48,034 nt of DNA from the IMG/VR virus record IMGVR_UViG_3300029079_000001. One strand, given 5' to 3'. The notes under the pieces were generated by a model. That model had not been told where the DNA came from, did no database searches, and saw only the letters and a program-made list of their open reading frames with translations. The position numbers and the translations under genes were made by a program. This document shows, piece after piece, positions 2,330-30,614 of the stretch. The stretch comes from a virus. Its lineage: Duplodnaviria; Heunggongvirae; Uroviricota; Caudoviricetes. The first letter of the stretch is position 1; every line of letters begins with the position of its first letter.

Positions 2330-2351
2330 AATATTTATAACCCCAATAAAT

Positions 2352-2377
2352 GGCGTCAGGAATGACGCCTTTTTTAT
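2352..2377 (+). terminator. Intrinsic terminator after J
   Basis: Hairpin GGCGTCA-GGAA-TGACGCC followed by a T-run. Confidence 0.6.
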
Positions 2378-2399
2378 TGCAGAAAAGCGAGAGGTAATT

Positions 2400-2999
2400 A
2401 TGCGTAAATTATGTGCTGTTATTCTGTCCGCAGTAGTCTGGCTGGTTGCCGCTGGTACGCCAGCGAGCGCAGCAGAGCATCAGTCCACACTAAGCGCCGG
2501 GTATCTTCAGACCCATACTGATATGCCAGGCAGTGATGACCTGAAGGGCATTAACGTGAAATACCGTTATGAATTTACGGACACGCTGGGGCTGGTGACG
2601 TCATTCAGTTATGCCAATGCCAAAGATGAGCAAAAAACGCATTACAGCGATACCCGCTGGCATGAAGATTCAGTGCGTAACCGCTGGTTCAGCATGATGG
2701 CGGGGCCATCTGTACGCGTGAATGAATGGTTCAGTGCTTATGCGATGGCAGGTGTGGCTTACAGCCGTGTTTCGACGTTCTCCGGGGATTATCTCCGCGT
2801 AACTGACAACAAGGGGAAAACGCACGATGTGCTGACCGGAAGTGATGACGATCGCAACAGCAACACGTCTCTGGCGTGGGGAGCTGGCGTGCAGTTTAAC
2901 CCGACCGAATCCGTGGCCATTGATATTGCTTATGAAGGCTCCGGCAGTGGCGACTGGCGCACTGACGGTTTCATCGTGGGTGTCGGTTATAAGTTCTGA
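2400..2999 (+). CDS. lom: Outer membrane protein Lom (Ail/Lom family beta-barrel)
   Basis: 199 aa, signal peptide, C-terminal ...GFIVGVGYKF beta-barrel end; closely matches recalled lambda Lom. Confidence 0.9.
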   Translation: MRKLCAVILSAVVWLVAAGTPASAAEHQSTLSAGYLQTHTDMPGSDDLKGINVKYRYEFTDTLGLVTSFSYANAKDEQKTHYSDTRWHEDSVRNRWFSMMAGPSVRVNEWFSAYAMAGVAYSRVSTFSGDYLRVTDNKGKTHDVLTGSDDDRNSNTSLAWGAGVQFNPTESVAIDIAYEGSGSGDWRTDGFIVGVGYKF

Positions 3000-3025
3000 T
3001 TAGCCAGGTAACACAGTGTTATGAC

Positions 3026-3053
3026 AGCCCGCCGGTTCAGGCGGGCTTTTTTG
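3026..3053 (+). terminator. Intrinsic terminator after lom
   Basis: Hairpin AGCCCGCC-GGTTCA-GGCGGGCT followed by TTTTTT. Confidence 0.7.
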
Positions 3054-3057
3054 TGGA

Positions 3058-7240: not shown

Positions 7241-7270
7241 ATATCCCCTGCAATGCAGGGGATATTTCTT
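7241..7270. terminator. Hairpin between convergent genes (membrane ORF on + and sopB on -), probable bidirectional terminator
   Basis: ATATCCCCTGCA / TGCAGGGGATAT inverted repeat with T-rich flank. Confidence 0.55.
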
Positions 7271-8234
7271 AATTATCAGTAGATTGTTCCTCTAGTAACA
7301 ACTCAATTCTGCTTAGTATTTCTTTAGATATTTTTCGGCTATCAATTTTTATAGTTACAAAATTACCTTTATATCTAGCCGTGATCCCTTCCCCATATTT
7401 TTTCTCGTCTTTTGTTTTTTCCTCGTCGCCAACCAGAACAGAGTCAGATAATATTTGTATAATCCGTGAAGCTTCTAAATCCTCGCCGTTTTTTTTAATT
7501 GCCAGAAGATGATGAGCAGCATTGCTCATGGCAGCCATGTTTTTTTTGTAGACCTTAAACAAAGAATCTCCAGCACGAGCTGACAGTTCTCCTGGATGAT
7601 TGAAGATAGCTAATATATCTTTTGGTAGACCAGCTGTATTAATACAGCGAGTGATAATATTTCTGTCTATATTTTCAGCCTCGGCTAATGCTTTAACGTT
7701 ACCATCAAAGTCATTTAGCTTGCGTAAGTATCTCTTTCCTCTTTCGTATGCACTAATAGGCCTATAATCGTTACCAATTTGGGATAACCAATGCATCTGT
7801 TCATCGTCGAGATCACCTATTAAGACGCGATAGTCACATCCTGTTAATATCGCTGCTTTTCTTCTACGTGAGCCGTCAGCGACTTCAACGATTCCAGACA
7901 CTTTTCTGGCGAAAGCTGGATTTTGTTGTCCAGACGTTAGAAAAGATGGGATTAAATCGGCTAGAGAGGATTCATTTAATAAATCTTGATCGCGTTCATT
8001 ACCTAGCCATACCATTGTTGCCATTTCAACTTTATCTGCGGGAATTGTCTCTAACTTAAAGTTAACATTACGTCCGCATACTGGCAAAGTTATGCTGTTA
8101 CCGGTTAATGAACTCAGTTGACGTTTTAAATCACCAACCATAGGTGATACGGGCTGATGTTCAGGGGCATGATGATTATTACTCATAATGCGATTAATAT
8201 CTGGAGCATTTTTTAGAAGAGAGCGCTGTTTCAT
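7269..8234 (-). CDS. sopB: Partition protein SopB (ParB-type centromere-binding protein)
   Basis: 321 aa; ParB-like motif ...GSRRRKAAILTGCDYRVLIGDLDDEQ...; translationally coupled downstream of sopA. Confidence 0.8.
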   Translation of the reverse strand: MKQRSLLKNAPDINRIMSNNHHAPEHQPVSPMVGDLKRQLSSLTGNSITLPVCGRNVNFKLETIPADKVEMATMVWLGNERDQDLLNESSLADLIPSFLTSGQQNPAFARKVSGIVEVADGSRRRKAAILTGCDYRVLIGDLDDEQMHWLSQIGNDYRPISAYERGKRYLRKLNDFDGNVKALAEAENIDRNIITRCINTAGLPKDILAIFNHPGELSARAGDSLFKVYKKNMAAMSNAAHHLLAIKKNGEDLEASRIIQILSDSVLVGDEEKTKDEKKYGEGITARYKGNFVTIKIDSRKISKEILSRIELLLEEQSTDN

Positions 8235-9400
8235 TATTCGTTCTCCCAGCGAGGTTTTATTAGATCATCAAAAATTTCTCGGCAAACAGGGTCCCATATA
8301 GAAACAGCATTTCTCCATGCATTCAATGTTGAACGTTGGTTTGCTGCTTGTTCAAATACTGTTCTCATTTTTATCTGGCCTTTACCTACTTCATCGGTAA
8401 CGCGTACAACCTGACGTAATACCATTGATCCCCATGTATTTCTTATTTGTTCTTCCATCCATCGTGATTGATTCCCTGTAGTGAGACTATATTTAGTCAG
8501 AAGTAAGCGAACGGTTGGCTCAAATCCACCTAGGTCAACGCTTTCCAATAGATCGAGAAGCATTGTGAAAAACTGTAGAACAGAAGCGTAATCAAATAAT
8601 TCTGCAGGTGTAGCAACAACAATAACGTCAGCGGCACAAACAACGTTAATGGTTCCTGTACCGAGGTTCGGAGCACTATCTATAACGATAACATCGTAGT
8701 TATCCCAAACTGATTCAATAGCTGCGCGCAGCATAAGGTGTGGAGGATGAGGCAATTTACCCTGAGCATGATATTGCATGAGATCTGTTTCTATACGATG
8801 TAAAGCTAGGCAGCTAGGGATAATGTCTAGCCCAGGCCAACATGTTGGCTTTATAGCATATTCAGCGTTATCGCGTTCTCCTAAGTAAAATGGCAGTAAA
8901 GTATCCTCGGCATGGATATGTAAATCAGGAACATAACCGTGATACATAGAGGCCGTGCCTTGAGGATCGTTACCTTCAACCAAAAGAACACGATGACCTT
9001 GTAATGCTAACCATTGAGCTTGATGTACCGCAGACGATGTTTTATAAACGCCGCCTTTGTGTGACATAACGGCAAGCACAACAGGGTTTTTATCTTGTGG
9101 TCGTTGGTTTGGGTTGCCAAAAACTGCTCGCATACTGTTGATTTGATCTATGGTATAACCAGCACGACGTTCAATTCTTCCTCTCATTTCAAAGTCAGGT
9201 GCAGGTAAACGCCCGCTCTTCTCAGCATCTCTAATTGCTTGAGGAGTTACACCAATTAAATCTGCTACTTCAGTTATACCCCATCGGCGGGTGATACGCC
9301 GAGCTTCAGGACTATCATCACCGAATTGAGCGATTGCAATTGCTTGGGTCATTTCTTGACCTCTCGTAACACAATCTTGCAATAACTTTTTCAAAGACAT
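8234..9400 (-). CDS. sopA: Partition ATPase SopA (ParA/Walker-type, F SopA-like)
   Basis: 388 aa; deviant Walker A MSHKGGVYKTS; extensive similarity to recalled F-plasmid SopA (HTH ...AIAIAQFGDDSPEARRITRRW...). Confidence 0.9.
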   Translation of the reverse strand: MSLKKLLQDCVTRGQEMTQAIAIAQFGDDSPEARRITRRWGITEVADLIGVTPQAIRDAEKSGRLPAPDFEMRGRIERRAGYTIDQINSMRAVFGNPNQRPQDKNPVVLAVMSHKGGVYKTSSAVHQAQWLALQGHRVLLVEGNDPQGTASMYHGYVPDLHIHAEDTLLPFYLGERDNAEYAIKPTCWPGLDIIPSCLALHRIETDLMQYHAQGKLPHPPHLMLRAAIESVWDNYDVIVIDSAPNLGTGTINVVCAADVIVVATPAELFDYASVLQFFTMLLDLLESVDLGGFEPTVRLLLTKYSLTTGNQSRWMEEQIRNTWGSMVLRQVVRVTDEVGKGQIKMRTVFEQAANQRSTLNAWRNAVSIWDPVCREIFDDLIKPRWENE

Positions 9401-9835: not shown

Positions 9836-9877
9836 ACATAATTCCCCATTATACGCGCGTATAATGGGGAATTATGT
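9836..9877. other. telRL: Telomere resolution site (telRL-like): 42-bp perfect palindrome with central TACGCGCGTA
   Basis: ACATAATTCCCCATTATACGCGCGTATAATGGGGAATTATGT equals its own reverse complement; the 22-bp core CCATTATACGCGCGTATAATGG matches the recalled N15 telO; lies immediately upstream of telN. Confidence 0.8.
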
Positions 9878-10047: not shown

Positions 10048-11949
10048 ATGAGCAAAGTAAAAATCGGTGAATTAATAAACTCACTTGTTAGCGATGTTGA
10101 GTCAATAGATAACTCTGACCGTCCTCAAGGGGAAAAAACAAAAAAAATAAAGGCTGTTGCATTAAAATTTAAAAATGCATTATTTAATGACAAGCGAAAG
10201 TTTAGGGGGAAAGGATTAGAAAAAAGAATTACAGCCAACACATTCAATGCCTATATGAGCAGGGCCAGAAAACGGTTTGATGATAAACTTCATCATAGCT
10301 TTGAAAAAAATATACATCGCCTATCTGAAAAGTATCCTTTATATAATGAGGAGCTATTGTCATGGCTTTCTCTACCTGCTGCCGATATTCGCCAGAGAAT
10401 GTCAGCTTTACAGGCAAAATTAAAATTAATTCTCCCTTTATCAGAAGATTTATCTAATATCAGAATTGGTGATAACAAAAGTCATAATAAGTTATTAAAA
10501 TTATCAAATAAATATAAAGAGTGGCAATTCGCCATATCTGATTTAACTAGCGATAACTGGAAAGATAAGCGCGATTATTTATATAAATTACTACAGCAAG
10601 GATCTGCCTTACTTGAGGAGTTGAATCAGCTAAAAGTTAACCATGAGATTCTCTATCATCTTCAACTAAGCCCTGCCGAACGCGCATCTATCCAGCAACG
10701 ATGGGCGGACGTTCTGCACAATAAGAAACGTAACGTGGTGGTCATTGATTACCCTAAATATATGCAAGCTATTTACGATATTATAAATAGCCCTGCTACA
10801 TTAAATAATCTAAACACTCGTTCAGGTATGGCTCCTTTGGCATTTGCACTTGCAGCATTGTCAGGAAGACGAATGATTGAGATTATGTATCAAGGTACAT
10901 TTACTGTTTCTGGTAAGTATACCGTTGATTTTTTAGGCCAAGCAAAAAAAAGAACTTCTGATGATATAACCAGAAAAATATATACATTATGCGAAGCAAA
11001 AACATTTGTTTATTTAATAAATGTACTTCGCTCATGCCCAGCAGCATCTGATTTTGATGATGTCGTTAAAGGTTATGGAGATAACGACACACGCTCTGAA
11101 AACGGACGGATTAATGCCATATTAGCAAAGGCTTTTAACCCGTGGGTTAAATCATTTTTCAAAGATGACCGCCGTGTTTATAAAGATAGTCGTGCTATTT
11201 ATGCCCGTATTGCGTATGAAATGTTTTTCCGCGTAGATCCTCGTTGGAAAAACGTAGATGAGGATGTTTTCTTTATGGAAATTTTAGGCCATGACGATGA
11301 AAACACTCAATTACACTATAAGCAATTCAAGCTGGCCAACTTCTCAAAGACATGGAGGCCAAATACTGGAAACGAAAATACCAGGCTGGAAGCATTGCAG
11401 CAGCTTGATGACGAAATGCCAGGATTCGCCAGAGGAGATGCCGGGGTTCGTCTGCATAACACAGTTAAGCAGCTGGTAGAGCAGGACCCCTCTATAAAAA
11501 TCACGAACAGCACTCTAAGAGCATTCAAATTTAGCCCTACAATGATTAGTCGATACCTGGAATTTGCTGCTGATGCTCTGGGGCAATTTGTTGGCGAAAA
11601 TGGACAATGGCAGCTGAAAATAGATTCTCCAGAAATCGTTATGCCTGACGAAGAAGAGCTGGAAGCAATACCTGAACAGACGGATGAATTATCAGAGGAT
11701 GACGATCTGGATGACGACGAAATTGAGATAGAGGAAGAGGAAGAGGAAGAGGAAGAGAGCGTAGAAGAACAGCAACCGCCCGCGCCTTCTTCACCTGTAT
11801 CTAAGCCGGTATTTAAGCCCGTGAGAAATATTGGTGATGGCTCATACGTTGTTGAGTTTCATTATAATGGCCAGAATTATGCTTGGTCCGGCATTGCAAA
11901 CAGCCCTATATCAGCAATGCAGTTAGCATGGCTGACATATTTCGGATAA
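10048..11949 (+). CDS. telN: Protelomerase TelN (telomere resolvase)
   Basis: 633 aa; N15 TelN-like sequence throughout with an acidic EEEEEEE C-terminal region; directly adjacent to the palindromic target. Confidence 0.9.
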   Translation: MSKVKIGELINSLVSDVESIDNSDRPQGEKTKKIKAVALKFKNALFNDKRKFRGKGLEKRITANTFNAYMSRARKRFDDKLHHSFEKNIHRLSEKYPLYNEELLSWLSLPAADIRQRMSALQAKLKLILPLSEDLSNIRIGDNKSHNKLLKLSNKYKEWQFAISDLTSDNWKDKRDYLYKLLQQGSALLEELNQLKVNHEILYHLQLSPAERASIQQRWADVLHNKKRNVVVIDYPKYMQAIYDIINSPATLNNLNTRSGMAPLAFALAALSGRRMIEIMYQGTFTVSGKYTVDFLGQAKKRTSDDITRKIYTLCEAKTFVYLINVLRSCPAASDFDDVVKGYGDNDTRSENGRINAILAKAFNPWVKSFFKDDRRVYKDSRAIYARIAYEMFFRVDPRWKNVDEDVFFMEILGHDDENTQLHYKQFKLANFSKTWRPNTGNENTRLEALQQLDDEMPGFARGDAGVRLHNTVKQLVEQDPSIKITNSTLRAFKFSPTMISRYLEFAADALGQFVGENGQWQLKIDSPEIVMPDEEELEAIPEQTDELSEDDDLDDDEIEIEEEEEEEEESVEEQQPPAPSSPVSKPVFKPVRNIGDGSYVVEFHYNGQNYAWSGIANSPISAMQLAWLTYFG

Positions 11950-12550: not shown

Positions 12551-12711
12551 GGTATGCACTCCGTTTAATTGGTCGTGCTACCACCAGAGTTCCTACGCTC
12601 TATATGGCGGTAGCCCAGACGGGGGTAGGAATACCGGTAAACGAAGAAACCGGCCAGCTAAAAGCTGCCCCATCTGAGCCACCATAAATTTGGTGTACGC
12701 AGATTTTACAC

Positions 12712-12736
12712 ACAAAAAAACACGCTGGCGCGTGTT
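12712..12736 (-). terminator. Intrinsic terminator inside the leader of the antirepressor-like operon
   Basis: On the minus strand AACACGC-GCCA-GCGTGTT followed by TTTTTTT. Confidence 0.7.
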
Positions 12737-12739
12737 GTG

Positions 12740-12900
12740 CGCTTCATTTACTCGGGTTCCTACGCCCGGCTACGGGATTTACCGTAGCAGAGTAAACTTT
12801 ACCGTCAAAACGACGCGCACGTCAATAATTTGCAAAGACATTTTACCCCGTGACCAGTCACGGGGACAGGTGTTTTTATAATTTGCTTGAACGAGTGATC
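12740..12900 (-). ncRNA. Candidate leader/small regulatory RNA region (N15 CA / P4 CI RNA-like control of the antirepressor operon)
   Basis: No ORF; 9-bp-stem hairpin CCCCGTGAC/GTCACGGGG at 12846..12865; lies upstream of the terminator; the 10-mer GTTCCTACGC occurs twice (12589, 12756) with a partially complementary GGTAGGAAT at 12624. Confidence 0.35.
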
Positions 12901-13970: not shown

Positions 13971-14162
13971 TTACTCCCCGTTCACCGAAAATTCACGATA
14001 GAAACGTTTCCACATACGATAAGTCTGCGCAAATTGTTCACCACGAAACATCGCCTTCCTGGCCTTCATGTTTTCCTTGTGAGACTTTCGGTCTATGAAC
14101 CAAAACCATTGATGGAACACACAAAGCAAGAGACACAAAGATAATATCCAATCATTACCCAT
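13971..14162 (-). CDS. Small membrane protein (63 aa), translationally coupled to the repA stop
   Basis: ATG at 14162 overlaps the repA stop; TM segment WILSLCLLLCVFHQWFWFI; the ORF track gives a longer 13971..14279 frame. Confidence 0.5.
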   Translation of the reverse strand: MGNDWILSLCLLLCVFHQWFWFIDRKSHKENMKARKAMFRGEQFAQTYRMWKRFYREFSVNGE

Positions 14163-17100
14163 AGAAAGCGCCCTGCTCTTCGTAGCTGCATGAGCTATTC
14201 CCCGTAATGTATTCACGTAACCGCCGCAGCTCATTGCTGGAAAGGTGATCCATGAACTCTGTGAGGTACAGGGATGCAAACGTCATAGCTATGCTGGCTG
14301 ATGACCATGATGACATAGTGGCCAACTCCTCACTGGAAAGCGCACTCATCGCCCAGGACTCAGGTACAGCCACTGGCAACACGGCCAAAGCCTCAGAAAT
14401 TACTGAATGAGGGGCGTTTTGAACCTGCTCGTTTGTGGATCGCGTTTTATCATCCATATATATATTGAGATCCAAATCGCGATCCATTTCGATGGCTGTC
14501 TTCTCGGCTTTACGCGTTTTTAGGGTTAGGCCATCTTTCTGACGCTGAACAAGAATATCCAGCATAAATGCCGCTGATTCAGGCTCAACAAAACGCAAGG
14601 TTGGACGCTTATCGCCGTCTCTGCCGCGACGTTTACCTGTTTTAAGGCCAAGAGAGTCGCAAATGTTTTTAAACAACGCTTCCGGCACTTTAGGCTTCCC
14701 TTTTGGCGTCATAAAACCACCAATGTGCAGAACGTTATTCAACAGGTCACGGCGTTCGGCTGTCATGAGGTTATCTCGAGCGAATTTGAGACGCTCCTGA
14801 GTCGCCTCGCCGGTCATAGTCTCAGGGTTGATACCGCAGTCGATAAAGTACTGCCGGAGAGTTGCTGATTTAAGCGCATAGAAACCGCGCGCCCCGACTT
14901 CAACAGTAGGAGTAGCTTTTACCTTGTGATCGATTATTCCAGGGAATTTAGTTTTAAAGACATCATCAGCCTGCTCGCGAGTCATCGCGGTCACTACAAA
15001 ATATTGCCACTGTCCCGCCTGACGGTATGCGTAGGTAAAATTGATGGCTGCTTCTTCCCGGTCGTAACGACGAGCTGTTACCTCATCTAAAAGCATTGTT
15101 TCATAGCGGCGAACTTTGTCTCGAGCACCATCGAAATAGAATTTCAGCGTGCCTTCTTCAACCGGTAGTTTCAGTTCGTTTTCAATATCCCAGCGGACAA
15201 GTTTTGCCTGTTCTTCAAGCGTCAGCGCGCGTTTTTTTAGCAGTTCTTCACGCTCTGATTCTTGTGGAGTTTCTGTATTGAGGTGCAGATCCAGTGTCTG
15301 TTCCCACACAATATCCCGCGCTTCTTTACGCAGATCTTTACCGATATCATTCGCAGCATAATCGGTGGCCAGCGGTGATACCTTATAACCGTCGCTGTGC
15401 ATGATGCAGATCATGTTGCTGGCGTAGTCGTTACGCGCAGTCGCTTCAATTGCGGCTGCTTTAATTTTCATCCTGGTAAAGTCGGTATTGGCCACCCCCA
15501 TTGATATACGGTCGCCATCGAAAACGACATCCGTCAGTTCACCGTTCATACCTGCGGTAGCAAGCAATGCCTGGGCGAATGCTCGTTCTATTTTTTGCGG
15601 GTCAGTTTCTCGTTTTGCACGAGCTTTATCAAAGCCGATAATAAATTCTTTTGCTGTACGGTCGCGGCGTAGCATTTGCACTGCGTCGCTGGGTACAACT
15701 TCACCACAGAACATGCCGAAATGACGGTCAAAATGTTTTTGCTCAATCGACACGCCGGATGAAATAGACGGGCTATAAATCAGGCCGTCGTATTTTTTGA
15801 CCATCTTTTTCGGTTGATTGGTAAATGCTTCAACTTCTGGCTCTGGTTTGTTTTTCTGGTTTACACACAGAAATTTCTTACCAGGAAAATGCATTCTCAG
15901 GGTGGCTGTCACATCTTCTGCAAAGGTGGAGCTGTCGGTGGCCAACATGATTTTTTCGCCATCCGATACAGCTTTCACCACCTCGGTCATGATGCGATCT
16001 TTTTCTGTATAAAAAACCCGGATTGGCTCACCTGTTTCGCGGTTGCGAACATCAACAGGTAATTCAATTACGTGGATCTGCAGCCATGCCGGTAAACCTA
16101 GTTCTTCACGGCGTTTCATAGCCAGTTCAGCCAGGTCAACCAGTAGATCGTTCGCATCAGCATCCACCATGATTGGGTGTTGTTCCGTTCTGGCCAGCGC
16201 GTCAATTAGCGTATTGAATACAGCAACCGGGTTTTCCATAGCCCGACCGGAAAGAACGGCACGTAGCCCTTGCGTGGCCTCGTCAAAGCCAAAATAGTCG
16301 TGCTGGCGCATCAACGGTTGCCAGCAGTTTTTAACAATCGAGTTTATGCAGATGGTCAGTTTACTGGCGTATGGAGCAATTTCCTGATAGCCAGGGTCCT
16401 GATAGTGCAGGATATCGGCTTTTACACCTTTTCCTTCTGTCATCATTTCCCACAGGCCACCAATAAGGGAGACACGGTGAGCAACAGAGATACCACGTTC
16501 TGAGCTATGCATTAACGGTCGTAACAATCCAGTAGATTTGCCGGAACCCATACCAGCACGGACGATGACTATCCCCTGTAGTGATTGCACGTACTTCAGG
16601 ACATCATCGGTCATTACCGAAGTTTCAAAACGCTTATAGGTGATATGTTGAGGGCGTTTATTGGGATCAGTTATGCGTTCGCTGAAAGAGCGCGGAGCCT
16701 GGGCAATACGGCACTTTTTATTCAGGCGACGGGCAATGTGGTCTTTTACCGTAGCACGATAGATATTTTCCAGTCCCATTTCACGCAGAACGATGCAGAA
16801 CATGTTAAATAAATCTGACGGACTGTTAGGAACCGGGCAGGTTAGCATGCCAATATCCACCGCTCTCAGCAGCTCTTTGGCAAAAGTACGACGGTTATCC
16901 CGCTTAATTGTCTTCAGGCGGTTGAGCGTCAGAGATAGCAAATCAGTACCGGTTTTCAGGCGGTTTGCTGTTGCAAATAGTTGACGTGCTGTTTCACGAA
17001 GTCCACGTAGTTTGTGCAGGTCGTTGAAGTCACTGCACTCCATTTGCGGATCGTCTTCAAAAGTTGGATAGACGCAGCGGACATCGTTGAATTTCGATAA

Positions 17101-18150
17101 GATTTCATAGCCAGTCCGCAGGCCGGTATTCCCTTTTCCTTCTGTGGCAGATTTCCGGTCATTATCCAGTGCGCAGGTGATTTTTGCCGCCGGGTACATG
17201 TTTACCAGTTGTTCCACAACATGAACCATGTTGTTAGCGGATACAGCGACAACCACAGCGTCAAAGCGTTTATCTTTTTTCGTGGCAAGCCAGATGGATG
17301 CACCAGTAGCAAAACCTTCTGTAACAGCGATGTTTTGCGCCCCTTTCAGCTCACCGATAACAAAGCAGGCACCGACGAAATCGCCGCTGGTTACTGCGCT
17401 GGTCTGGTATTTCCCACCTTGTTTGTCGATTCGCTGCCAACCCACAATACGACCATCATAACGACCGTCCAGGTGAGCCAGAGGGATAGCCATATATGTG
17501 GTTGGCCCCCGGCTCCATTTCGCACTGTCGTGACTGGTCACGCGACGCACATCACATGAACTAAAAACGTCACGAATACCTTTTTTAATCGCATATGGCC
17601 ATGAGCCGTCTTCAGCCTGAGCATGTTCCCACGCGCTGTGGAATGCCAGCCATCCCAGCAAACGTTCATGGTCCATTTGGTTGTTTTTCAGGTCATTAAT
17701 TCGTTTTTGTTCTTCACGGCGACGACGTGCTTCGGCCTGACGTTCTATTCTTTCCCGTTCTTCTTCCGGTTGTGCGACCACGGTCGCATTATTCCGTTGT
17801 TGCTCACGGCGATATTCAGAAAACAGGAAGGAGAAACCGCTCCATGAGCCAGCATCGCTGCCTTTATGGACGAAGTTAATGAACGGGTAATCAATCCCTT
17901 TGCTGTGTTCCAGCCTGGAGTAAATTTCTACGCGTCCTTTCAGGCTCTTTTCGAGAGCTTCTGGAGATGTTTTATTGTATGAAGAGTAACGCTCAACCCC
18001 CCCGCGAGGGTTGAGTTGGATGTTGTCGGAACAGGCAGACCAGTTGATACCAGCCATCTGTGCCAGCTCGGTTAGTTCATCCCGTGCTGCTTCAATTAGC
18101 GAGAACGGATCGCTGCCAAAGCGATCCGCATAGAAATCGTTTAATGTCAT
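14155..18150 (-). CDS. repA: Replication protein RepA (multidomain primase-helicase, N15 RepA-like)
   Basis: 1331 aa; Walker A GMGSGKST in the helicase part; position and size match N15 repA; sopC-like palindrome #1 lies inside it at 17771..17788. Confidence 0.85.
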   Translation of the reverse strand: MTLNDFYADRFGSDPFSLIEAARDELTELAQMAGINWSACSDNIQLNPRGGVERYSSYNKTSPEALEKSLKGRVEIYSRLEHSKGIDYPFINFVHKGSDAGSWSGFSFLFSEYRREQQRNNATVVAQPEEERERIERQAEARRRREEQKRINDLKNNQMDHERLLGWLAFHSAWEHAQAEDGSWPYAIKKGIRDVFSSCDVRRVTSHDSAKWSRGPTTYMAIPLAHLDGRYDGRIVGWQRIDKQGGKYQTSAVTSGDFVGACFVIGELKGAQNIAVTEGFATGASIWLATKKDKRFDAVVVAVSANNMVHVVEQLVNMYPAAKITCALDNDRKSATEGKGNTGLRTGYEILSKFNDVRCVYPTFEDDPQMECSDFNDLHKLRGLRETARQLFATANRLKTGTDLLSLTLNRLKTIKRDNRRTFAKELLRAVDIGMLTCPVPNSPSDLFNMFCIVLREMGLENIYRATVKDHIARRLNKKCRIAQAPRSFSERITDPNKRPQHITYKRFETSVMTDDVLKYVQSLQGIVIVRAGMGSGKSTGLLRPLMHSSERGISVAHRVSLIGGLWEMMTEGKGVKADILHYQDPGYQEIAPYASKLTICINSIVKNCWQPLMRQHDYFGFDEATQGLRAVLSGRAMENPVAVFNTLIDALARTEQHPIMVDADANDLLVDLAELAMKRREELGLPAWLQIHVIELPVDVRNRETGEPIRVFYTEKDRIMTEVVKAVSDGEKIMLATDSSTFAEDVTATLRMHFPGKKFLCVNQKNKPEPEVEAFTNQPKKMVKKYDGLIYSPSISSGVSIEQKHFDRHFGMFCGEVVPSDAVQMLRRDRTAKEFIIGFDKARAKRETDPQKIERAFAQALLATAGMNGELTDVVFDGDRISMGVANTDFTRMKIKAAAIEATARNDYASNMICIMHSDGYKVSPLATDYAANDIGKDLRKEARDIVWEQTLDLHLNTETPQESEREELLKKRALTLEEQAKLVRWDIENELKLPVEEGTLKFYFDGARDKVRRYETMLLDEVTARRYDREEAAINFTYAYRQAGQWQYFVVTAMTREQADDVFKTKFPGIIDHKVKATPTVEVGARGFYALKSATLRQYFIDCGINPETMTGEATQERLKFARDNLMTAERRDLLNNVLHIGGFMTPKGKPKVPEALFKNICDSLGLKTGKRRGRDGDKRPTLRFVEPESAAFMLDILVQRQKDGLTLKTRKAEKTAIEMDRDLDLNIYMDDKTRSTNEQVQNAPHSVISEALAVLPVAVPESWAMSALSSEELATMSSWSSASIAMTFASLYLTEFMDHLSSNELRRLREYITGNSSCSYEEQGAFYG
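17771..17788. repeat. sopC-like centromere palindrome #1 (inside repA)
   Basis: TGTGCGACCACGGTCGCA. Confidence 0.6.
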
Positions 18151-20012: not shown

Positions 20013-20258
20013 ATGTTCAGGAAACCGTCGAAGCCAGAATTAAGGTATTCGGGGGTAAGAAATGAATATGTTATCTGGTGTCCAACTTGTGGTTACAGGA
20101 CACGACCAGATAGTAATAAGCAGTCTGTAATTGCCGATTGGTATTTATCAAATCAGCCAGGTAATAAGCATATAGAAAATCTTTGGATTAAGCGTTACTT
20201 GGAAATCAGAGAGGGTGCGACCGTGGTCGCACAAGAAAATGAAAATAACGCCATTTAA
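20013..20258 (+). CDS. Small zinc-ribbon protein
   Basis: ATG at 20013; CxxC pair in ...VIWCPTCGYRTRPD...; sopC-like site #2 lies near its 3' end. Confidence 0.45.
   Translation: MFRKPSKPELRYSGVRNEYVIWCPTCGYRTRPDSNKQSVIADWYLSNQPGNKHIENLWIKRYLEIREGATVVAQENENNAI
20215..20232. repeat. sopC-like centromere palindrome #2
   Basis: GTGCGACCGTGGTCGCAC. Confidence 0.6.
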
Positions 20259-24800: not shown

Positions 24801-24818
24801 TGTGCGACCACGGTCGCA
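24801..24818. repeat. sopC-like centromere palindrome #3
   Basis: GTGCGACCACGGTCGCAC (intergenic). Confidence 0.6.
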
Positions 24819-24904
24819 CAGCACAAAAACGAAAAAGCTTGGCAAAATGACGGTTTTTAGTTATTGTTTTGTTAAGTTGGGTTTTTTGTACCCAACAGCC
24901 AACA

Positions 24905-27093: not shown

Positions 27094-27555
27094 ATGAGTC
27101 GGTTAACCGCGATTATCTCCGCTCTGGTTATCTGCATCATCGTCTGCCTGTCATGGGCTGTTAATCATTACCGTGATAACGCCATCTCCTACAAAGAGCA
27201 GCGCGACAAAAACGCCAGAGAGTTGAAGCTGGCGAACGCCACCATCAAAGACATGCAGATCCGCCAGCGTGATGTAGCGGCTCTGGATGCCAAATACACG
27301 AAGGACTTAGCTGATGCTAAAAAGCAGCTTGATGATTTGCAGCGTTGTGTTCGCACTGGCAAGTGTGGGCTGCACCTCAACGCCAGATGTCCCGCGAACG
27401 GAGCGACCATCACCGGCGGCCTGGGCGATGCTACCGGCCCCCGACTTACTGACTCCGCTGAACGGGATTATTTCATCCTCAGAGAGCGAATCGTCACAGT
27501 GACGAAACAGGTTGGATATTTGCAGGAGTACATCAGGACGCAATGCCTGAATTAA
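27094..27555 (+). CDS. Rz: Spanin inner-membrane subunit Rz
   Basis: 153 aa from ATG 27094; N-terminal [17 protein letters not shown]; coiled-coil body; closely matches recalled lambda Rz. Confidence 0.85.
27314..27502 (+). CDS. Rz1: Spanin outer-membrane lipoprotein Rz1 (embedded in Rz, +1 frame)
   Basis: 62 aa; lipobox LASVGC; Pro-rich. Confidence 0.8.
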
Positions 27556-27596
27556 TTCCTCTGCATCAAAAACTAACTTAATTTGTTGGATAGTGA

Positions 27597-27923
27597 ATGA
27601 AAATTTATATTTCCGGACCAATGACGGGATATGAGAATTTTAATCGTGACGCCTTTAATAAAGAGGCTGAGCGTTTATCACGTCATGCTCACGTAGTCCT
27701 GAACCCGGCGATTTTTCCTAATGGCCTGACACAACGTGCACACATGGAGATTTGCTTTGCAATGCTTCGCTGTGCTGATGCTATTTTGATGCTTCCTGGC
27801 TGGAAAACATCTGCCGGAGCCACTGCGGATTACCATTACGCATACAAGATGGGGATGCCGGTATTCACTACGCTGAATTATCCGCCAGCTTGTTCCTCGT
27901 GTGCGACCGTGGTCGCACGCTAA
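27597..27923 (+). CDS. DUF4406-like protein (nucleoside 2-deoxyribosyltransferase-like fold)
   Basis: MKIYISGPMTG... N-terminal signature; sopC-like site #4 lies in its last codons. Confidence 0.55.
   Translation: MKIYISGPMTGYENFNRDAFNKEAERLSRHAHVVLNPAIFPNGLTQRAHMEICFAMLRCADAILMLPGWKTSAGATADYHYAYKMGMPVFTTLNYPPACSSCATVVAR
27901..27918. repeat. sopC-like centromere palindrome #4
   Basis: GTGCGACCGTGGTCGCAC. Confidence 0.6.
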
Positions 27924-27928
27924 ATTCC

Positions 27929-27996
27929 GCGCTGCATCGTCGCCGTATTCCCGCATTAACTATGACCGTAGCCCGACGGGGAACTCCTCTGCGCGA
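27929..27996. repeat. Left copy of a ~68-bp direct repeat flanking the AT-rich cassette
   Basis: GCGCTGCATCGTCGCCGTATTCCCGCATTAACTATGACCGTAGCCCGACGGGGAACTCCTCTGCGCGAG; second copy at 29713..29780 with 4 mismatches. Confidence 0.8.
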
Positions 27997-28120
27997 GTGT
28001 GCGGAAATAATCAAAAACGATGCACACCGGGTTTTTACCGCGCTATTGATTCGCGGGTTTGTCCCTCATGCTCGCCAGTCCTGTGCGAGGGTGGAAGAAA
28101 CAGGGCATGTATTCAGGAGC

Positions 28121-28138
28121 GTGCGACCGTGGTTGCAC
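28121..28138. repeat. sopC-like centromere palindrome #5 (one mismatch)
   Basis: GTGCGACCGTGGTTGCAC. Confidence 0.5.
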
Positions 28139-28161
28139 GGTATCTTTGTCAGGAGGTTTTG

Positions 28162-29022
28162 ATGAAAGAGTTGCAAAAAATTAATTCAATAATGGAAAGG
28201 TTAAGTGCTCTTGAGCGTAAGCTGGACGATTGTGGAAAGCTGTGTGTTGAAAAGCAAAATGAGCTTTACCGAGAATTTTTTACAATCGTAAGTGAGCTGA
28301 TGCCAATTGTTAATAACTGCCTGATGACATCCAGATTTTTTAATGTCGATGCTACTACATCCAGAAAATTTTCTGTGAAAATTCAAGAAAGAGTTTCTGG
28401 TAGTGTGACAAGAGAGATGGCTGAACAGTTGGTGGCAATGAGCAATAAAACAAAAAGAAAAAAGGCATTGCTTGTAACAGCAAATCAGCTTTCAGGGCGC
28501 GTTGACTTTCAGGTCAGACAGGGTGGGCGTGTACTGGTAAATGATGCGTTCGTTGGACGTAGCTTTAGTCCTTACTCGATGAAATATGATGTTGATGCAG
28601 ATGATCAGGATATCAGCATTTCCTGGAAATCTGAGACAGCAGGGATTGTATTAACAGCAGAGTTGTTGAGTGATGATAAAAATGATGTCCAGCATCATTT
28701 GGACGAAAAGAATCATATTTCTGAAATTTGTATGAAGCCACGCAGCGGAATGACTTTATTGTCACGCACTCTTGCTGCTGGCTTTTCTGCACCGGAAAAA
28801 CGTGTGCTTCTGGTAGTGCCTGAAGATGCAGATATTCGACCACTGAATGGCTGTGATGTTATTAGTGCAAAAACATTGCATACCCGCGTCATTCCTGTAC
28901 CGGATGTGGTCATTATTGATGATGTTGAGAAATGCAAGTCTGTTTCCTCAACTGCCACAATCAAGCGAATTTTACGTTGTAGCACGTCGGCTGTTGTATT
29001 CCGGAAGCAGTTACATAACTAA
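28162..29022 (+). CDS. Hypothetical cytoplasmic protein (287 aa), AT-rich cassette gene 1
   Basis: ATG 28162 with AGGAGG RBS (the track's 27901 start reads through the repeat); N-terminal coiled-coil-like segment; no recognisable family. Confidence 0.6.
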   Translation: MKELQKINSIMERLSALERKLDDCGKLCVEKQNELYREFFTIVSELMPIVNNCLMTSRFFNVDATTSRKFSVKIQERVSGSVTREMAEQLVAMSNKTKRKKALLVTANQLSGRVDFQVRQGGRVLVNDAFVGRSFSPYSMKYDVDADDQDISISWKSETAGIVLTAELLSDDKNDVQHHLDEKNHISEICMKPRSGMTLLSRTLAAGFSAPEKRVLLVVPEDADIRPLNGCDVISAKTLHTRVIPVPDVVIIDDVEKCKSVSSTATIKRILRCSTSAVVFRKQLHN

Positions 29023-29146
29023 CCAGTTTTGTTTTGCAGAACATCCTCAACTAAAAGCTTATAGAAAGAGAACCTGAGATATTTTTTCTGTCTCTCGTAG
29101 TTGTTTATTTTTTTTCGAACAGGCTTACAACTTACAGGATATAAAC

Positions 29147-29596
29147 ATGCAAGAAGAAGCAAATAAAATTCTTGTTGATTTATTGAAGAAGGCCAGCGAT
29201 GGAATTGATTCCGCCATTGCATTCAGTCAGGCACAGATTCCGGATGTTGTTCATCAGTTGCTGGTATGGAATATGGTTGATAGCCTGATTAAAACATTAA
29301 TAGCCATTTCAACAATCCCGCTAGTTATTTGGTTTATGAAGAAACAGTACCAAAAAGTTGAAATTGGTAAGTTCGATAATGAAGGATGGTCATGGGAAAA
29401 ATGGAAGCCTAAATACAAACAGACTATGATTTGGGAAAGTAACGGTGAGATTAGTTTTCTTATCTTACCATTAGCAGCAGTTTTTGTTCTGTGGGTAAGT
29501 TTTATTATTGCTGTAGTAACCAATATGACATGGTTAAAAATCTGGTTGGCACCTAAGTTATATCTAATCGAATACGCAGCATCACTAATTAAATAG
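29147..29596 (+). CDS. Hypothetical membrane protein (149 aa, two TM segments), AT-rich cassette gene 2
   Basis: TM segments LIKTLIAISTIPLVIWF and ISFLILPLAAVFVLWVSFIIAVV. Confidence 0.55.
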   Translation: MQEEANKILVDLLKKASDGIDSAIAFSQAQIPDVVHQLLVWNMVDSLIKTLIAISTIPLVIWFMKKQYQKVEIGKFDNEGWSWEKWKPKYKQTMIWESNGEISFLILPLAAVFVLWVSFIIAVVTNMTWLKIWLAPKLYLIEYAASLIK

Positions 29597-29712
29597 TCCA
29601 TTACAAAAGCCATTCGCTACTGAGTGGCTTTGATAATGGCTTATACCCTACACGGGATAACTTAACTGATATCCCTTTTAACGGATAAATGTATTCAAGC
29701 CTGACACATCAT

Positions 29713-29780
29713 GCGCTGTATCGTCGCTGTATTCCCGCATTAACCATGACCGTAGCCTGACGGGGAACTCCTCTGCGCGA
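29713..29780. repeat. Right copy of the ~68-bp direct repeat
   Basis: GCGCTGTATCGTCGCTGTATTCCCGCATTAACCATGACCGTAGCCTGACGGGGAACTCCTCTGCGCGAG. Confidence 0.8.
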
Positions 29781-29805
29781 GCATGCAGGATGTTGATTCA
29801 TTGCT

Positions 29806-29823
29806 GTGCGACCGTGGTCGCAC
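29806..29823. repeat. sopC-like centromere palindrome #6
   Basis: GTGCGACCGTGGTCGCAC. Confidence 0.6.
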
Positions 29824-29879
29824 GACGCAGGTCTGTCAGACATTGAATTCATTGCGAATAAACCAGAACGCCTGCGGGT

Positions 29880-30094
29880 CCTTTCCGGCGATCCGGCAGG
29901 CTACGGGGCGGAAGGCGCGCGGGTTTTCGCTATTTATGAAAATTTTCCGGTTTAAGGCGTTTCCGTTCTTCTTCGCCGTAACTTAATGTTTTTATTTAAA
30001 ACACCCCCTGAAAAGAAAGGAAACGACAGATGCTGAAAACGGGCTTTTTGGCCTCTGTCGTTTCCTTTCTCTGTTTTTGTCCGTGGAATGAACA
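29880..30094. other. cos: cos region (cosQ/cosN/cosB-like) upstream of Nu1
   Basis: ...ACGGGGCGGAAGGCGCGCGGGTTTTCGCTATTTATGAAAATTTTCCGGTTTAAGGCG... is near-identical to the recalled lambda left end, except that the 12-nt cosN position reads GGGCGGAAGGCG. Confidence 0.7.
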
Positions 30095-30614
30095 ATGGAA
30101 GTCAACAAAAAGCAGCTGGCTGATATTTTCGGTGCGAGTATCCGTACCATTCAGAACTGGCAGGAGCAGGGAATGCCCGTTCTGCGAGGCGGTGGCAAGG
30201 GTAATGAGGTGCTTTATGATTCTGCCGCCGTCATAAAATGGTATGCCGAAAGGGATGCTGAAATTGAGAACGAAAAGCTGCGCCGGGAGGTTGAAGAACT
30301 GCGGCTGGCCAGCGAGGCAGATCTTCACCCCGGAACACTTGAATTTGAGCGCCATCGCCTGACCCGTGCTCAGGCGACGGCGCAGGAACTGAAAAATGCC
30401 AAAGAATCGGCTGAAGTGGTGGAAACCGCATTCTGTACTTTCGTGCTGTCGCGTATAGCAAGGGAAATATCCAGTATTCTCGACGGTATTCCTCTGTCGG
30501 TGCAGCGACGTTTTCCTGAGCTGGATAACCGGCATATTGATTTCCTGAAACGGGATATCATCAAAGCCATGAACAAAGCAGCCGCGCTGGATGAACTGAT
30601 ACCGGGGTTGCTGA

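What the first reader, a model, noticed from the sequence alone, without database searches (positions are those of the whole stretch)
27896..29830. ~68-bp direct repeats plus centromere-like palindromes delimit a replaceable module
The two repeat copies differ at only 4 positions and each sits beside a GTGCGACCGTGGTCGCAC palindrome (27901, 28121 with one mismatch, 29806). The right-hand unit looks like the left-hand unit with about 65 bp deleted. Such a flanking repeat pair is a plausible substrate for cassette gain or loss by homologous recombination, and it concentrates three putative SopB binding sites next to cos.
Basis: seen in the sequence. Interest (0 to 1): 0.5.

Follow-up and report, generated by a model that had tools for sequence, protein, structure and literature searches.

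The report
Centromere palindromes and repeats flank moron
In this N15-like telomere phage, a two-gene insert just upstream of cos is flanked by two copies of a widespread lambdoid non-coding element and three N15-type partition-site palindromes, and related plasmids that have lost the insert by recombination between the copies show this is ordinary phage mosaicism.

Summary
The repeats are 27929-28002 and 29713-29786: 74 nt at 92%, with 4 differences in the first 69 nt. The palindromes are at 27901, 28121 (one mismatch) and 29806. The window is an N15-like telomere phage with sopBA, telRL, telN and repA. The 18-mer is identical to the defined N15 centromere sites IR1-4. The window has six such sites where N15 has four.

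The repeat is not a cassette end. It is the 5' part of a ~295-bp lambdoid non-coding unit, A-R-B. R-B is present in 3087 of 5426 complete E. coli genomes. It probably folds as a + strand RNA hairpin followed by a U-run. The left copy (R-B) is intact. The right copy (A-R) has lost about 99 bp, not about 65 bp.

Relatives vary in this interval:
- full right units;
- cassette-less telomere plasmids with one hybrid repeat and a crossover inside R-B;
- palindrome-bounded deletions;
- ORF1-only and ORF2-only forms;
- a diverged ORF1-like stub.

The same module, palindromes included, also sits in integrated lambdoid prophages that show no Sop genes in the sequence examined.

Verdict: a recombination-prone moron region, and a new variant of known kinds. 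The cargo function is unknown. Moderate interest.

The parts
27597..27923 (+). DUF4406 ORF, homologue of N15 gene 57. It forms the left flank. Its last 5 codons run into PAL1 in this window only.
   Evidence: Pfam DUF4406, E=4.5e-31. Alignment with relatives and N15 gp57.
27901..27918 (.). PAL1: N15-type SopB centromere palindrome, exact. It is the positional analogue of N15 IR4, lying downstream of gene 57/58 and followed by 'GCT'.
   Evidence: IR sequences in PMC7205306 Table 4.
27929..28002 (+). R, left copy: the 5' two-thirds of a conserved lambdoid hairpin element.
28003..28107 (+). B, left copy only. It holds the 3' arm of the long hairpin, a U-run (GGGTTTTTA) and two further covarying hairpins. 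Together with R it makes an intact R-B unit.
28121..28138 (.). PAL2: centromere palindrome with one mismatch (C14 to T). It lies 23 nt upstream of the ORF1 start and sits at a recurrent mosaic breakpoint.
   Evidence: Flagged as terminator-like.
28162..29022 (+). ORF1, 286 aa, cargo gene 1. It is an orphan family restricted to Escherichia phage and prophage DNA. Its RBS is AGGAGG.
   Evidence: No Pfam hit; PHROG 2571, function unknown; AlphaFold2 pLDDT 40.
29147..29596 (+). ORF2, 149 aa, cargo gene 2, function unknown. It is also found without ORF1 in other lambdoid prophages.
   Evidence: PHROG 3054; loci L152 and L153.
29598..29712 (+). A: the upstream part of the lambdoid A-R-B unit. It begins with a terminator-like hairpin (AAAGCCAyTC...GAGTGGCTTT) immediately after the ORF2 stop codon.
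   Evidence: The homologous position in phage Ayreon is annotated 'terminator'.
29713..29786 (+). R, right copy. It is truncated: the 3' arm of the hairpin (B) is missing because of a deletion of about 99 bp.
29806..29823 (.). PAL3: centromere palindrome, exact. It ends 82 bp upstream of the cos nick.
29873..30094 (+). Lambda-type cos region, forming the right flank. The GGGTCCT heptamer is at 29876-29882 and the predicted 12-nt cohesive end is at 29906-29917. The Nu1 gene starts at 30095.
   Evidence: Homology to the right end of lambda and to Stx and lambdoid phages.
17772..17789 (.). Centromere palindrome inside repA, positional orthologue of N15 IR1.
20215..20232 (.). Centromere palindrome downstream of the Q-like gene, positional orthologue of N15 IR2.
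24802..24819 (.). Centromere palindrome upstream of the late region, positional orthologue of N15 IR3.
7269..9400 (-). sopB (7269-8234) and sopA (8234-9400): the cognate partition proteins for the palindromes.
   Evidence: Pfam SopB_HTH and ParA-type ATPase domains. SopB is 73% identical to N15 SopB.

Best explanation
The interval between the lysis genes and cos is a mosaic 'moron' region built from three kinds of sequence.

1. N15-type SopB centromere palindromes. The single cos-proximal site of N15 (IR4) is represented here by three sites.

2. Two copies of a conserved lambdoid non-coding unit, A-R-B. One copy is intact (R-B, left) and one is truncated (A-R, right). The unit itself most likely acts as a structured + strand RNA element of the late transcript: a ~100-nt hairpin followed by a U-run, then two small hairpins. 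This would be a terminator or RNA-processing type of element. It is not a recombination site by design.

3. A two-gene cargo of unknown function.

The ancestral arrangement was g57-PAL1-R-B-PAL2-ORF1-ORF2-A-R-B-PAL3-cos. The window's lineage deleted about 99 bp of the right B.

Because the two R-B(-PAL) copies are direct repeats, ordinary homologous recombination between them deletes the cargo, or reinserts it through a circular intermediate. The identical 18-20-bp palindromes give further short-homology breakpoints.

The palindromes most likely bind the phage's SopB and nucleate partition complexes for the linear plasmid prophage.

Shown: the sequence identities, the structural variants and the recombination joints. 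Inferred: SopB binding, the RNA function, and the direction of the events (loss or gain).
For: Palindromes:
- The 18-mer is identical to N15 IR1-4 (PMC7205306 Table 4).
- The sites at 17772, 20215 and 24802 have flanks homologous to N15 IR1-3.
- sopBA is present and so is the telRL core.

Repeat origin:
- mEp460, PhiR49_1, PhiR47_2, lambda and 2B8 each carry one contiguous A-R-B or R-B unit.
- Homology breakpoints in 80 distinct IMG/VR copies cluster at the start of A, the start of R and the end of B.
- R-B is a conserved island between 15-16 classes of flanking sequence.
- R-B occurs in 3087 of 5426 complete E. coli genomes and is unannotated in the five best-matching records listed.

RNA structure:
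- The RNAalifold consensus has 98.8% of cells paired.
- Compensatory changes occur at four pairs.
- Consensus energy is -43.9 kcal/mol on the + strand and -21.8 on the - strand.
- There are 77 G.U cells against 3 A.C cells.

Variants:
- L013 and L149 have the full right unit.
- L141, a decayed copy, has the same double-R layout, so the arrangement is old.
- L008 equals the left copy up to a 38-nt identity tract and the right copy after it. L151 has a different crossover.
- L014 and L150 lack the left R-B, with a single palindrome left at the junction.
- L139 has ORF1 only. L152 and L153 have ORF2 only.
- L009 has a 69-aa ORF that is 39% identical to the ORF1 N-terminus, directly after the palindrome.

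All plasmid loci used carry sopAB and/or telN at 94-99.9% identity to the window.
Against: - SopB binding to these particular sites was not and cannot be tested here.
- The same palindromes sit in an integrase-type phage whose complete annotated record lists no Sop gene (2B8) and in a lambdoid chromosomal prophage whose 26.6-kb stretch lists none (CUVM3/L149). They need not all be functional centromeres.
- The 2B8 variant GTGCAACCGTGGTTGCAC keeps its symmetry. This hints at selection on the hairpin itself.
- In this window the R/R homology is short (69-74 nt, longest perfect run 23 nt). Recombination between these two copies has not been shown for this genome type; the observed recombinants derive from relatives with about 170 nt of homology.
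- The direction of the events, loss or gain, cannot be read from the joints.
- The covariation support for the RNA fold rests on few independent changes among closely related sequences, and the structure was predicted on the same alignment.
- No promoter was found for the cargo.
Confidence: 0.72

Rival explanations
1. The palindromes act mainly as RNA or DNA hairpins, for example transcription terminators or insulators around morons. On this view SopB binding is irrelevant for the three cos-proximal copies.
For: - The N15 record annotates IR4 as a 'putative rho-independent terminator'.
- PAL2 followed by GGTATCTTTGT is flagged as terminator-like.
- The palindrome occurs next to cos in the integrase-type phage 2B8, whose record lists no Sop gene, as a symmetric double variant.
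- Several one-sided changes in other copies are C to T, which keeps G.U pairing on the + strand. Examples are the window's PAL2, L120 and L013 PAL1.
Against: - The sequence matches experimentally used N15 centromere sites exactly, and a cognate SopB is encoded (PMC7205306).
- PAL1 and PAL3 have no downstream T-run.
- The two arms are separated by only 2 nt, so the hairpin would have to open its inner pairs.
- Many copies in prophages show symmetry-breaking changes, as expected for neutral decay.
- A scan for the 2B8-type variant found only single isolated sites.
Confidence: 0.15
2. The repeats are the ends of a site-specific mobile cassette, either att-like sites or a target-site duplication made by an integrase or transposase.
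For: Direct repeats flank a low-GC two-gene insert: GC is 0.41-0.43 inside against 0.51-0.52 in the flanks. The insert is present or absent among relatives.
Against: - The cargo encodes no recombinase or transposase.
- The repeat is a pre-existing ubiquitous element, and at 74-210 bp it is far longer than a target-site duplication.
- The two cassette-less variants have different crossover points inside the homology.
- ORF1 and ORF2 also occur separately.
Confidence: 0.04
3. The two R copies have no bearing on cassette turnover. They are leftovers of two independent recombinations with different lambdoid phages, and the variants arose by unrelated illegitimate deletions.
For: - Copies differ by 6-8% in the window.
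- In type III relatives the right copy is of a distinct lambdoid type: B' at 88% identity plus a 1-nt indel.
- Several variants are clearly illegitimate deletions: YDC107_1/L011, L010 and L152.
Against: - L008 is an exact left/right hybrid with its switch inside a 38-nt identity tract. L151 is a second, independent hybrid.
- In L013 and L014 the right copies share the left copy's 1-nt indel state and the following palindrome. They are therefore paralogues of the left copy rather than independent imports.
Confidence: 0.12

Closest known systems
N15 dispersed Sop centromere sites IR1-IR4 (Ravin & Lane 1999; sequences in PMC7205306 Table 4)
   Same: The 18-bp palindrome is identical: GTGCGACCnnGGTCGCAC. 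The copies are dispersed. Three sites lie at orthologous positions: in repA, after Q, and before the late region. One site lies between the gene 57/58 region and cos. The cognate sopAB is present.
   Different: There are six sites rather than four. The cos-proximal site is triplicated and interleaved with lambdoid DNA and a moron. One copy carries a C to T change. The same sites are also found in integrated lambdoid prophages in which no Sop genes were seen.
Lambdoid 'morons' and mosaic boundary sequences in the Rz-cos interval (Juhala et al. 2000; e.g. bor in lambda)
   Same: Low-GC extra genes lie in the late operon between the lysis genes and cos. A terminator-like hairpin follows the cargo. 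The cargo is present or absent among relatives. Conserved non-coding stretches mark the mosaic joints.
   Different: The flanking conserved element is duplicated, so the moron is bracketed by direct repeats. The host is a telomere plasmid-prophage. No moron promoter was identified.
F plasmid sopC (tandem 43-bp repeats, each with a 16-bp SopB site)
   Same: The SopB-type palindrome differs from the F site at one position per half-site (PMC2910045). Several sites occur together.
   Different: The sites are not tandem. Spacings are 220 bp and 1685 bp, and unrelated DNA lies between them.

Membership tests
N15-type Sop centromere (IR) site | Palindrome matching the N15 IR consensus GTGCGACCnnGGTCGCAC | tested here: met
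   Exact at 27901 and 29806, and one mismatch at 28121. N15 IR1-4 were found with the same pattern. The sequences agree with PMC7205306 Table 4.
N15-type Sop centromere (IR) site | Cognate SopA and SopB encoded on the same replicon | tested here: met
   sopB is at 7269-8234 and sopA at 8234-9400. SopB is 73% identical to N15 SopB, and the HTH region is conserved.
N15-type Sop centromere (IR) site | Several dispersed copies at N15-like genome positions | tested here: met
   The flanks of 17772, 20215 and 24802 are homologous to N15 IR1-3. PAL1 lies at an IR4-like position.
N15-type Sop centromere (IR) site | SopB binding and SopAB-dependent plasmid stabilisation | not testable with these tools
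   This needs EMSA or ChIP and stability assays.
Lambdoid moron | Extra genes within the late operon, with composition unlike the flanks | tested here: met
   The cargo lies between the Rz/DUF4406 genes and cos. GC is 0.41-0.43 against 0.51-0.52 in the flanks.
Lambdoid moron | Own promoter and terminator | tested here: inconclusive
   A terminator-like hairpin sits right after ORF2. No convincing sigma-70 promoter lies upstream of ORF1.
Lambdoid moron | Presence or absence among otherwise similar genomes | tested here: met
   L008 and L151 have no cargo. L139 has ORF1 only. L152 and L153 have ORF2 only.
Site-specific cassette (att- or integron-like) | A dedicated recombinase and a fixed crossover point in the repeats | tested here: not met
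   No recombinase domains in the cargo. The crossovers differ between L008 and L151.
Transposable element with target-site duplication | Transposase, terminal inverted repeats, short target-site duplication | tested here: not met
   No transposase was found. The repeat is a 74-210-bp pre-existing element.
Described RNA families (Rfam 15) for the R-B element | A match to any curated covariance model | tested here: not met
   No hit over R-B at the gathering threshold or at E<=1.

The most novel reading that the evidence does not exclude
The repeated sequence is one intact and one broken copy of an undescribed structured RNA element of lambdoid late operons. The element (R-B) is a ~100-nt hairpin with a U-run followed by two covarying hairpins. 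It lies upstream of cos and is present in 57% of complete E. coli genomes. It may act as a terminator or processing site that insulates cos and terminase expression from upstream morons. In telomere phages it has become physically coupled to N15-type centromere palindromes. Those palindromes are then carried by late-region recombination into integrated lambdoid prophages, where they could titrate SopB of a co-resident telomere plasmid.
Probability: 0.3. Interest if true: 0.6.

Novelty: new variant of a known kind. Interest (0 to 1): 0.4.

Why it matters
This gives a nucleotide-level example of how telomere plasmid-prophages and integrated lambdoid prophages of Escherichia exchange late-region DNA. 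It also shows how a moron is gained or lost through recombination between duplicated conserved non-coding sequence.

N15-type centromere sites are not fixed at four. They can multiply, and they can travel into prophages in which no Sop genes were found. That bears on the partition and incompatibility of linear plasmid prophages and of vectors derived from N15.

As a by-product, the work points to a very common, unannotated and probably structured element upstream of cos in lambdoid prophages. This element is directly testable.

Tried and rejected
- Rfam, at the gathering threshold on the whole window and at E<=1 on 27500-30200: nothing over the repeats or palindromes. The only hits were C4 and isrK elsewhere plus spurious miRNA hits on the cosB inverted repeat.
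- Coding potential of R-B: no frame is consistently open (+ frame 0 is open in 35 of 81 copies), near-identical copies differ by a 1-nt indel, and the annotated CDSs over it disagree in frame and strand. Rejected as coding.
- Anti-sRNA loci of lambdoid prophages (AsxR, AgvB): these lie 3' of PR', not in this region. The Pas sRNA preprint gave no match by location terms.
- Cargo function: no Pfam or PADLOC hit, and the PHROG families have unknown function. The large-database search and the exhaustive search of 1.84 billion representatives found only the family itself and its fragments. The single-sequence AlphaFold2 model was poor (pLDDT 40), so no fold search was run. ORF1 is not homologous to N15 gp59.
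- Scan for the 2B8-type palindrome in IMG/VR: seven isolated sites and no multi-site contigs. There is no sign that it is the centromere of another Sop specificity group.
Uninformative.
- My own dinucleotide-shuffle script timed out. I used strand folding instead.
- Ravin & Lane 1999 (PMC94163) is not held. IR sequences were taken from PMC7205306.
Full report
WHAT THE WINDOW IS

The window is a circular permutation of an N15-like telomere phage.
- sopB and sopA lie at 7269-9400 on the minus strand (Pfam SopB_HTH and ParA-type ATPase domains).
- SopB is 73% identical to N15 SopB.
- The telRL core CCATTATACGCGCGTATAATGG sits at 9846-9867 and is identical to N15.
- A 633-aa telN-sized ORF lies at 10048-11949 and a 1331-aa repA-sized ORF at 14155-18150.
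- Unlike N15, the lysis genes, cos and the morphogenesis genes are lambda-like.
- The closest phage records are PhiR46_1 and YDC107_1, the latter annotated with a protelomerase.
- About 30 Escherichia/Shigella plasmid records carry sopAB and/or telN at 94-99.9% identity.

CHECKING THE OBSERVATION

The direct repeat is real. The copies at 27929-28002 and 29713-29786 are 74 nt at 92% identity. The first 69 nt differ at 4 positions.

The palindrome GTGCGACCGTGGTCGCAC is exact at 27901 and 29806 and has one mismatch at 28121. It also occurs at 17772, 20215 and 24802. That is six sites against 0.04 strand-hits expected by chance.

The right unit lacks about 99 bp relative to the left, not about 65 bp.

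None of these features is in conserved coding sequence. The DUF4406 ORF runs 5 extra codons into PAL1 only in this window.

THE PALINDROMES

N15 has four matches to the same pattern: in repA, after the Q-like gene, before the late promoter, and after gene 58.
- Their sequences and immediate flanks are the IR1-IR4 oligonucleotides used to build an N15 centromere in PMC7205306 (Table 4).
- PMC2847241 states that the N15 centromere site within repA confers sopAB-dependent stability.
- PMC2910045 states that the N15 and F SopB sites differ at one position per half-site.
- The window's sites at 17772, 20215 and 24802 have flanks homologous to IR1-3. PAL1, like IR4, follows the gene 57/58 region and is followed by 'GCT'.

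The centromere reading is therefore well founded by sequence. Binding itself is inferred.

WHAT THE REPEAT REALLY IS

Lambdoid phages carry one contiguous copy of a unit of about 295 bp, which I call A-R-B.
- A corresponds to window 29598-29712.
- R is the repeat.
- B corresponds to window 28003-28107.
- Single-copy carriers include mEp460, PhiR49_1, PhiR47_2 and lambda itself at 46,869-46,974.

The window therefore has R-B on the left and A-R on the right.

Among 80 distinct copies from IMG/VR, homology breakpoints cluster at the start of A, the start of R and the end of B. R-B is a conserved island between 15-16 classes of flanking sequence. R-B is found in 3087 of 5426 complete E. coli genomes, at 4601 places, and none of the five best-matching records listed annotates a feature over it.

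It is not coding. No frame is consistently open, and near-identical copies differ by a 1-nt indel.

RNAalifold on 18 diverse copies predicts the following on the + strand, which is the sense of the late operon:
- a ~100-nt hairpin formed by R plus the first ~28 nt of B;
- a U-run immediately after it;
- two small hairpins further into B.

Support for this fold:
- 98.8% of cells are paired.
- Four pairs show compensatory changes.
- Slid controls collapse to 28-60% paired.
- The + strand has 77 G.U cells against 3 A.C cells.
- Consensus energy is -43.9 kcal/mol on the + strand and -21.8 on the - strand.
- Lambda adds a further C-G to G-C swap in the main stem.

There is no Rfam match.

A begins with a terminator-like hairpin directly after the ORF2 stop codon. 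The homologous position in phage Ayreon is annotated 'terminator'.

In the window's right copy the 3' arm of the long hairpin is deleted, so that copy is a remnant.

STRUCTURAL VARIANTS IN RELATIVES

Type II (pAH01-1/L013 and the chromosomal prophage L149) reads g57-PAL1-R-B-PAL2-ORF1-ORF2-A-R-B-PAL3-cos. The repeat unit is the whole R-B-PAL, about 210 bp. A heavily decayed copy (L141) has the same layout, so this arrangement is old.

Type I is type II with most of the right B deleted. It comprises the window, pEA26_5/L012, L015 and L030. The same truncated right unit also occurs in L082, which lacks g57 and has a more diverged Rz.

Type III is the most common in PLSDB and includes PhiR46_1, L016 and L017. 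Its right unit is A-R-B', where B' is 88% identical and carries a 1-nt indel of the lambdoid type. It has no PAL3.

Cassette-less forms with a single repeat:
- L008 is a telomere plasmid. It equals the type III left copy up to a 38-nt identity tract in B and equals the right copy afterwards.
- L151, and similar chromosomal records (H210-H212, H214), switch at a different point.
- These are the signatures of homologous recombination between the repeats. Two independent crossover points argue against a site-specific mechanism.

Palindrome-bounded changes:
- L014 and L150 lack the left R-B and keep one palindrome at the joint.
- In L009 the palindrome is followed by a 69-aa ORF that is 39% identical to the ORF1 N-terminus.
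- In L152-L154 an HNH-endonuclease pseudogene is truncated at the palindrome's left edge.

Cargo genes that occur separately:
- L139 has ORF1 only, at 80% amino-acid identity and preceded by R-B-PAL.
- L152 and L153 have ORF2 only, followed by A-R-B.

Illegitimate deletions: YDC107_1 and L011 lack window 28747-29573. L010 is deleted from within ORF1 to cos.

EXCHANGE WITH INTEGRATED LAMBDOIDS

L149 is a classical lambdoid prophage in the chromosome. Its 26.6-kb stretch carries Kil, Ral, a CI-like repressor, Cro, CII, replication genes, the Nin region, RusA, Q and a lambda-type holin, and lists no Sop gene. It nevertheless carries the whole type II module with perfect PAL2 and PAL3.

Phage 2B8 has an integrase, N, CI, O, P and Q, and its complete annotated record lists no sop genes. 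It carries A-R-B-GTGCAACCGTGGTTGCAC-cos, a symmetric double variant of the palindrome. The window's PAL2 is the one-sided intermediate of that variant.

Other prophage copies show symmetry-breaking changes. A scan for the 2B8-type variant found no multi-site contigs.

The simplest reading is that the palindromes ride along when late regions recombine between telomere and integrating phages, and then decay. Selection on the hairpin itself cannot be excluded.

THE CARGO

ORF1 (286 aa) and ORF2 (149 aa) have no Pfam or PADLOC assignment. They match PHROG families 2571 and 3054, both of unknown function.

ORF1 is an orphan confined to Escherichia. It gave 15 clusters in the large protein database and only fragments of itself among 1.84 billion representatives.

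The AlphaFold2 model is unreliable apart from an N-terminal helix.

GC is lower than in the flanks. No convincing promoter was found.

MECHANISM

Shown:
- The interval is bracketed by direct repeats derived from a ubiquitous lambdoid element and by identical 18-20-bp palindromes.
- Natural relatives carry the products expected from recombination within these repeats.

Inferred:
- RecA or phage recombinases act on R-B(-PAL) to delete the cargo, or to reinsert it through a circular intermediate.
- SopB binds the three sites, adding partition-complex nucleation points near the middle of the linear prophage. PAL3 lies 82 bp from the cos nick and PAL2 lies 23 nt from the ORF1 start, so effects on ORF1 expression or on cos function are conceivable but untested.
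- In this particular genome the substrate is weak: 69-74 nt at 92-94%, a longest perfect run of 23 nt, and PAL1 and PAL3 identical over 20 nt. The module is probably more stable here than in type II or III relatives.

COMPARISON AND VERDICT

The palindromes meet every sequence-level criterion of N15 IR centromere sites.

The region behaves as a lambdoid moron or mosaic region. It fails the tests for a site-specific cassette or a transposon.

It is wrong in several details. The repeat is not a cassette end. The right copy is a truncated remnant with about 99 bp missing. Borders vary among relatives. No unrelated alternative cargo was found. The palindromes are also present in prophages in which no Sop genes were seen.

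Novelty: a new variant of known kinds. Interest is moderate. The most useful by-product is the widespread, unannotated and probably structured R-B element upstream of cos.

Noticed in passing
window 27929-28110 (also lambda 46,869-46,974; L004 2616-2795): The R-B element occurs in 3087 of 5426 complete E. coli genomes, up to 6 copies per genome, and the five best-matching records listed annotate nothing over it. It has a + strand-specific consensus fold with covariation and a U-run after a ~100-nt hairpin. It matches no Rfam family.
   Followed up: partly
L138 (phage 2B8) 48654-48671; L149 12552-12569 and 14336-14353: N15-type centromere palindromes occur next to cos in integrase-type lambdoid phages and prophages in which no sop genes are annotated. 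2B8 has the symmetric double variant GTGCAACCGTGGTTGCAC, and the window's PAL2 is the one-sided intermediate. They may be passenger centromeres, with possible incompatibility effects, or the hairpin itself may be under selection.
   Followed up: partly
L152 3369-3473; L153 2869-2973; L154 2914-3018: An HNH-endonuclease pseudogene (N-terminus MPSRIPRACRKRGCAG...DKHR) is truncated at the left edge of the palindrome. This is one more mosaic joint at that site.
   Followed up: partly
window 12603-12689 (-) and 12715-12788 (-): Rfam hits above the gathering score to C4 antisense RNA (73.6 bits) and isrK (62.5 bits), lying between the telN and repA regions. These look like an immunity or anti-repressor control locus of the P1/N15 type.
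   Followed up: no
window 30014-30070: A 26-nt inverted repeat (88% complementary) lies between cos and the Nu1 start. It is homologous to the lambda cosB region. It produced spurious miRNA hits in the permissive Rfam search.
   Followed up: no
L141 (GCA_964241885.1, 91-kb contig) 1950-4500: A heavily decayed, pseudogenised copy of the whole g57-PAL-R-B-PAL-ORF1-ORF2-A-R-B-PAL-cos-Nu1 region. The palindromes are eroded and the ORFs are broken. It shows that the double-repeat layout is old.
   Followed up: partly
window 28162-29022: ORF1 is a true orphan: only self-fragments were found among 1.84 billion representative proteins. L009 carries a 69-aa ORF that is 39% identical to its N-terminal coiled-coil region at the same position after the palindrome.
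   Followed up: partly
L139 238-876: A related prophage that has ORF1 only carries a hicAB toxin-antitoxin pair between the methyltransferase and holin genes.
   Followed up: no
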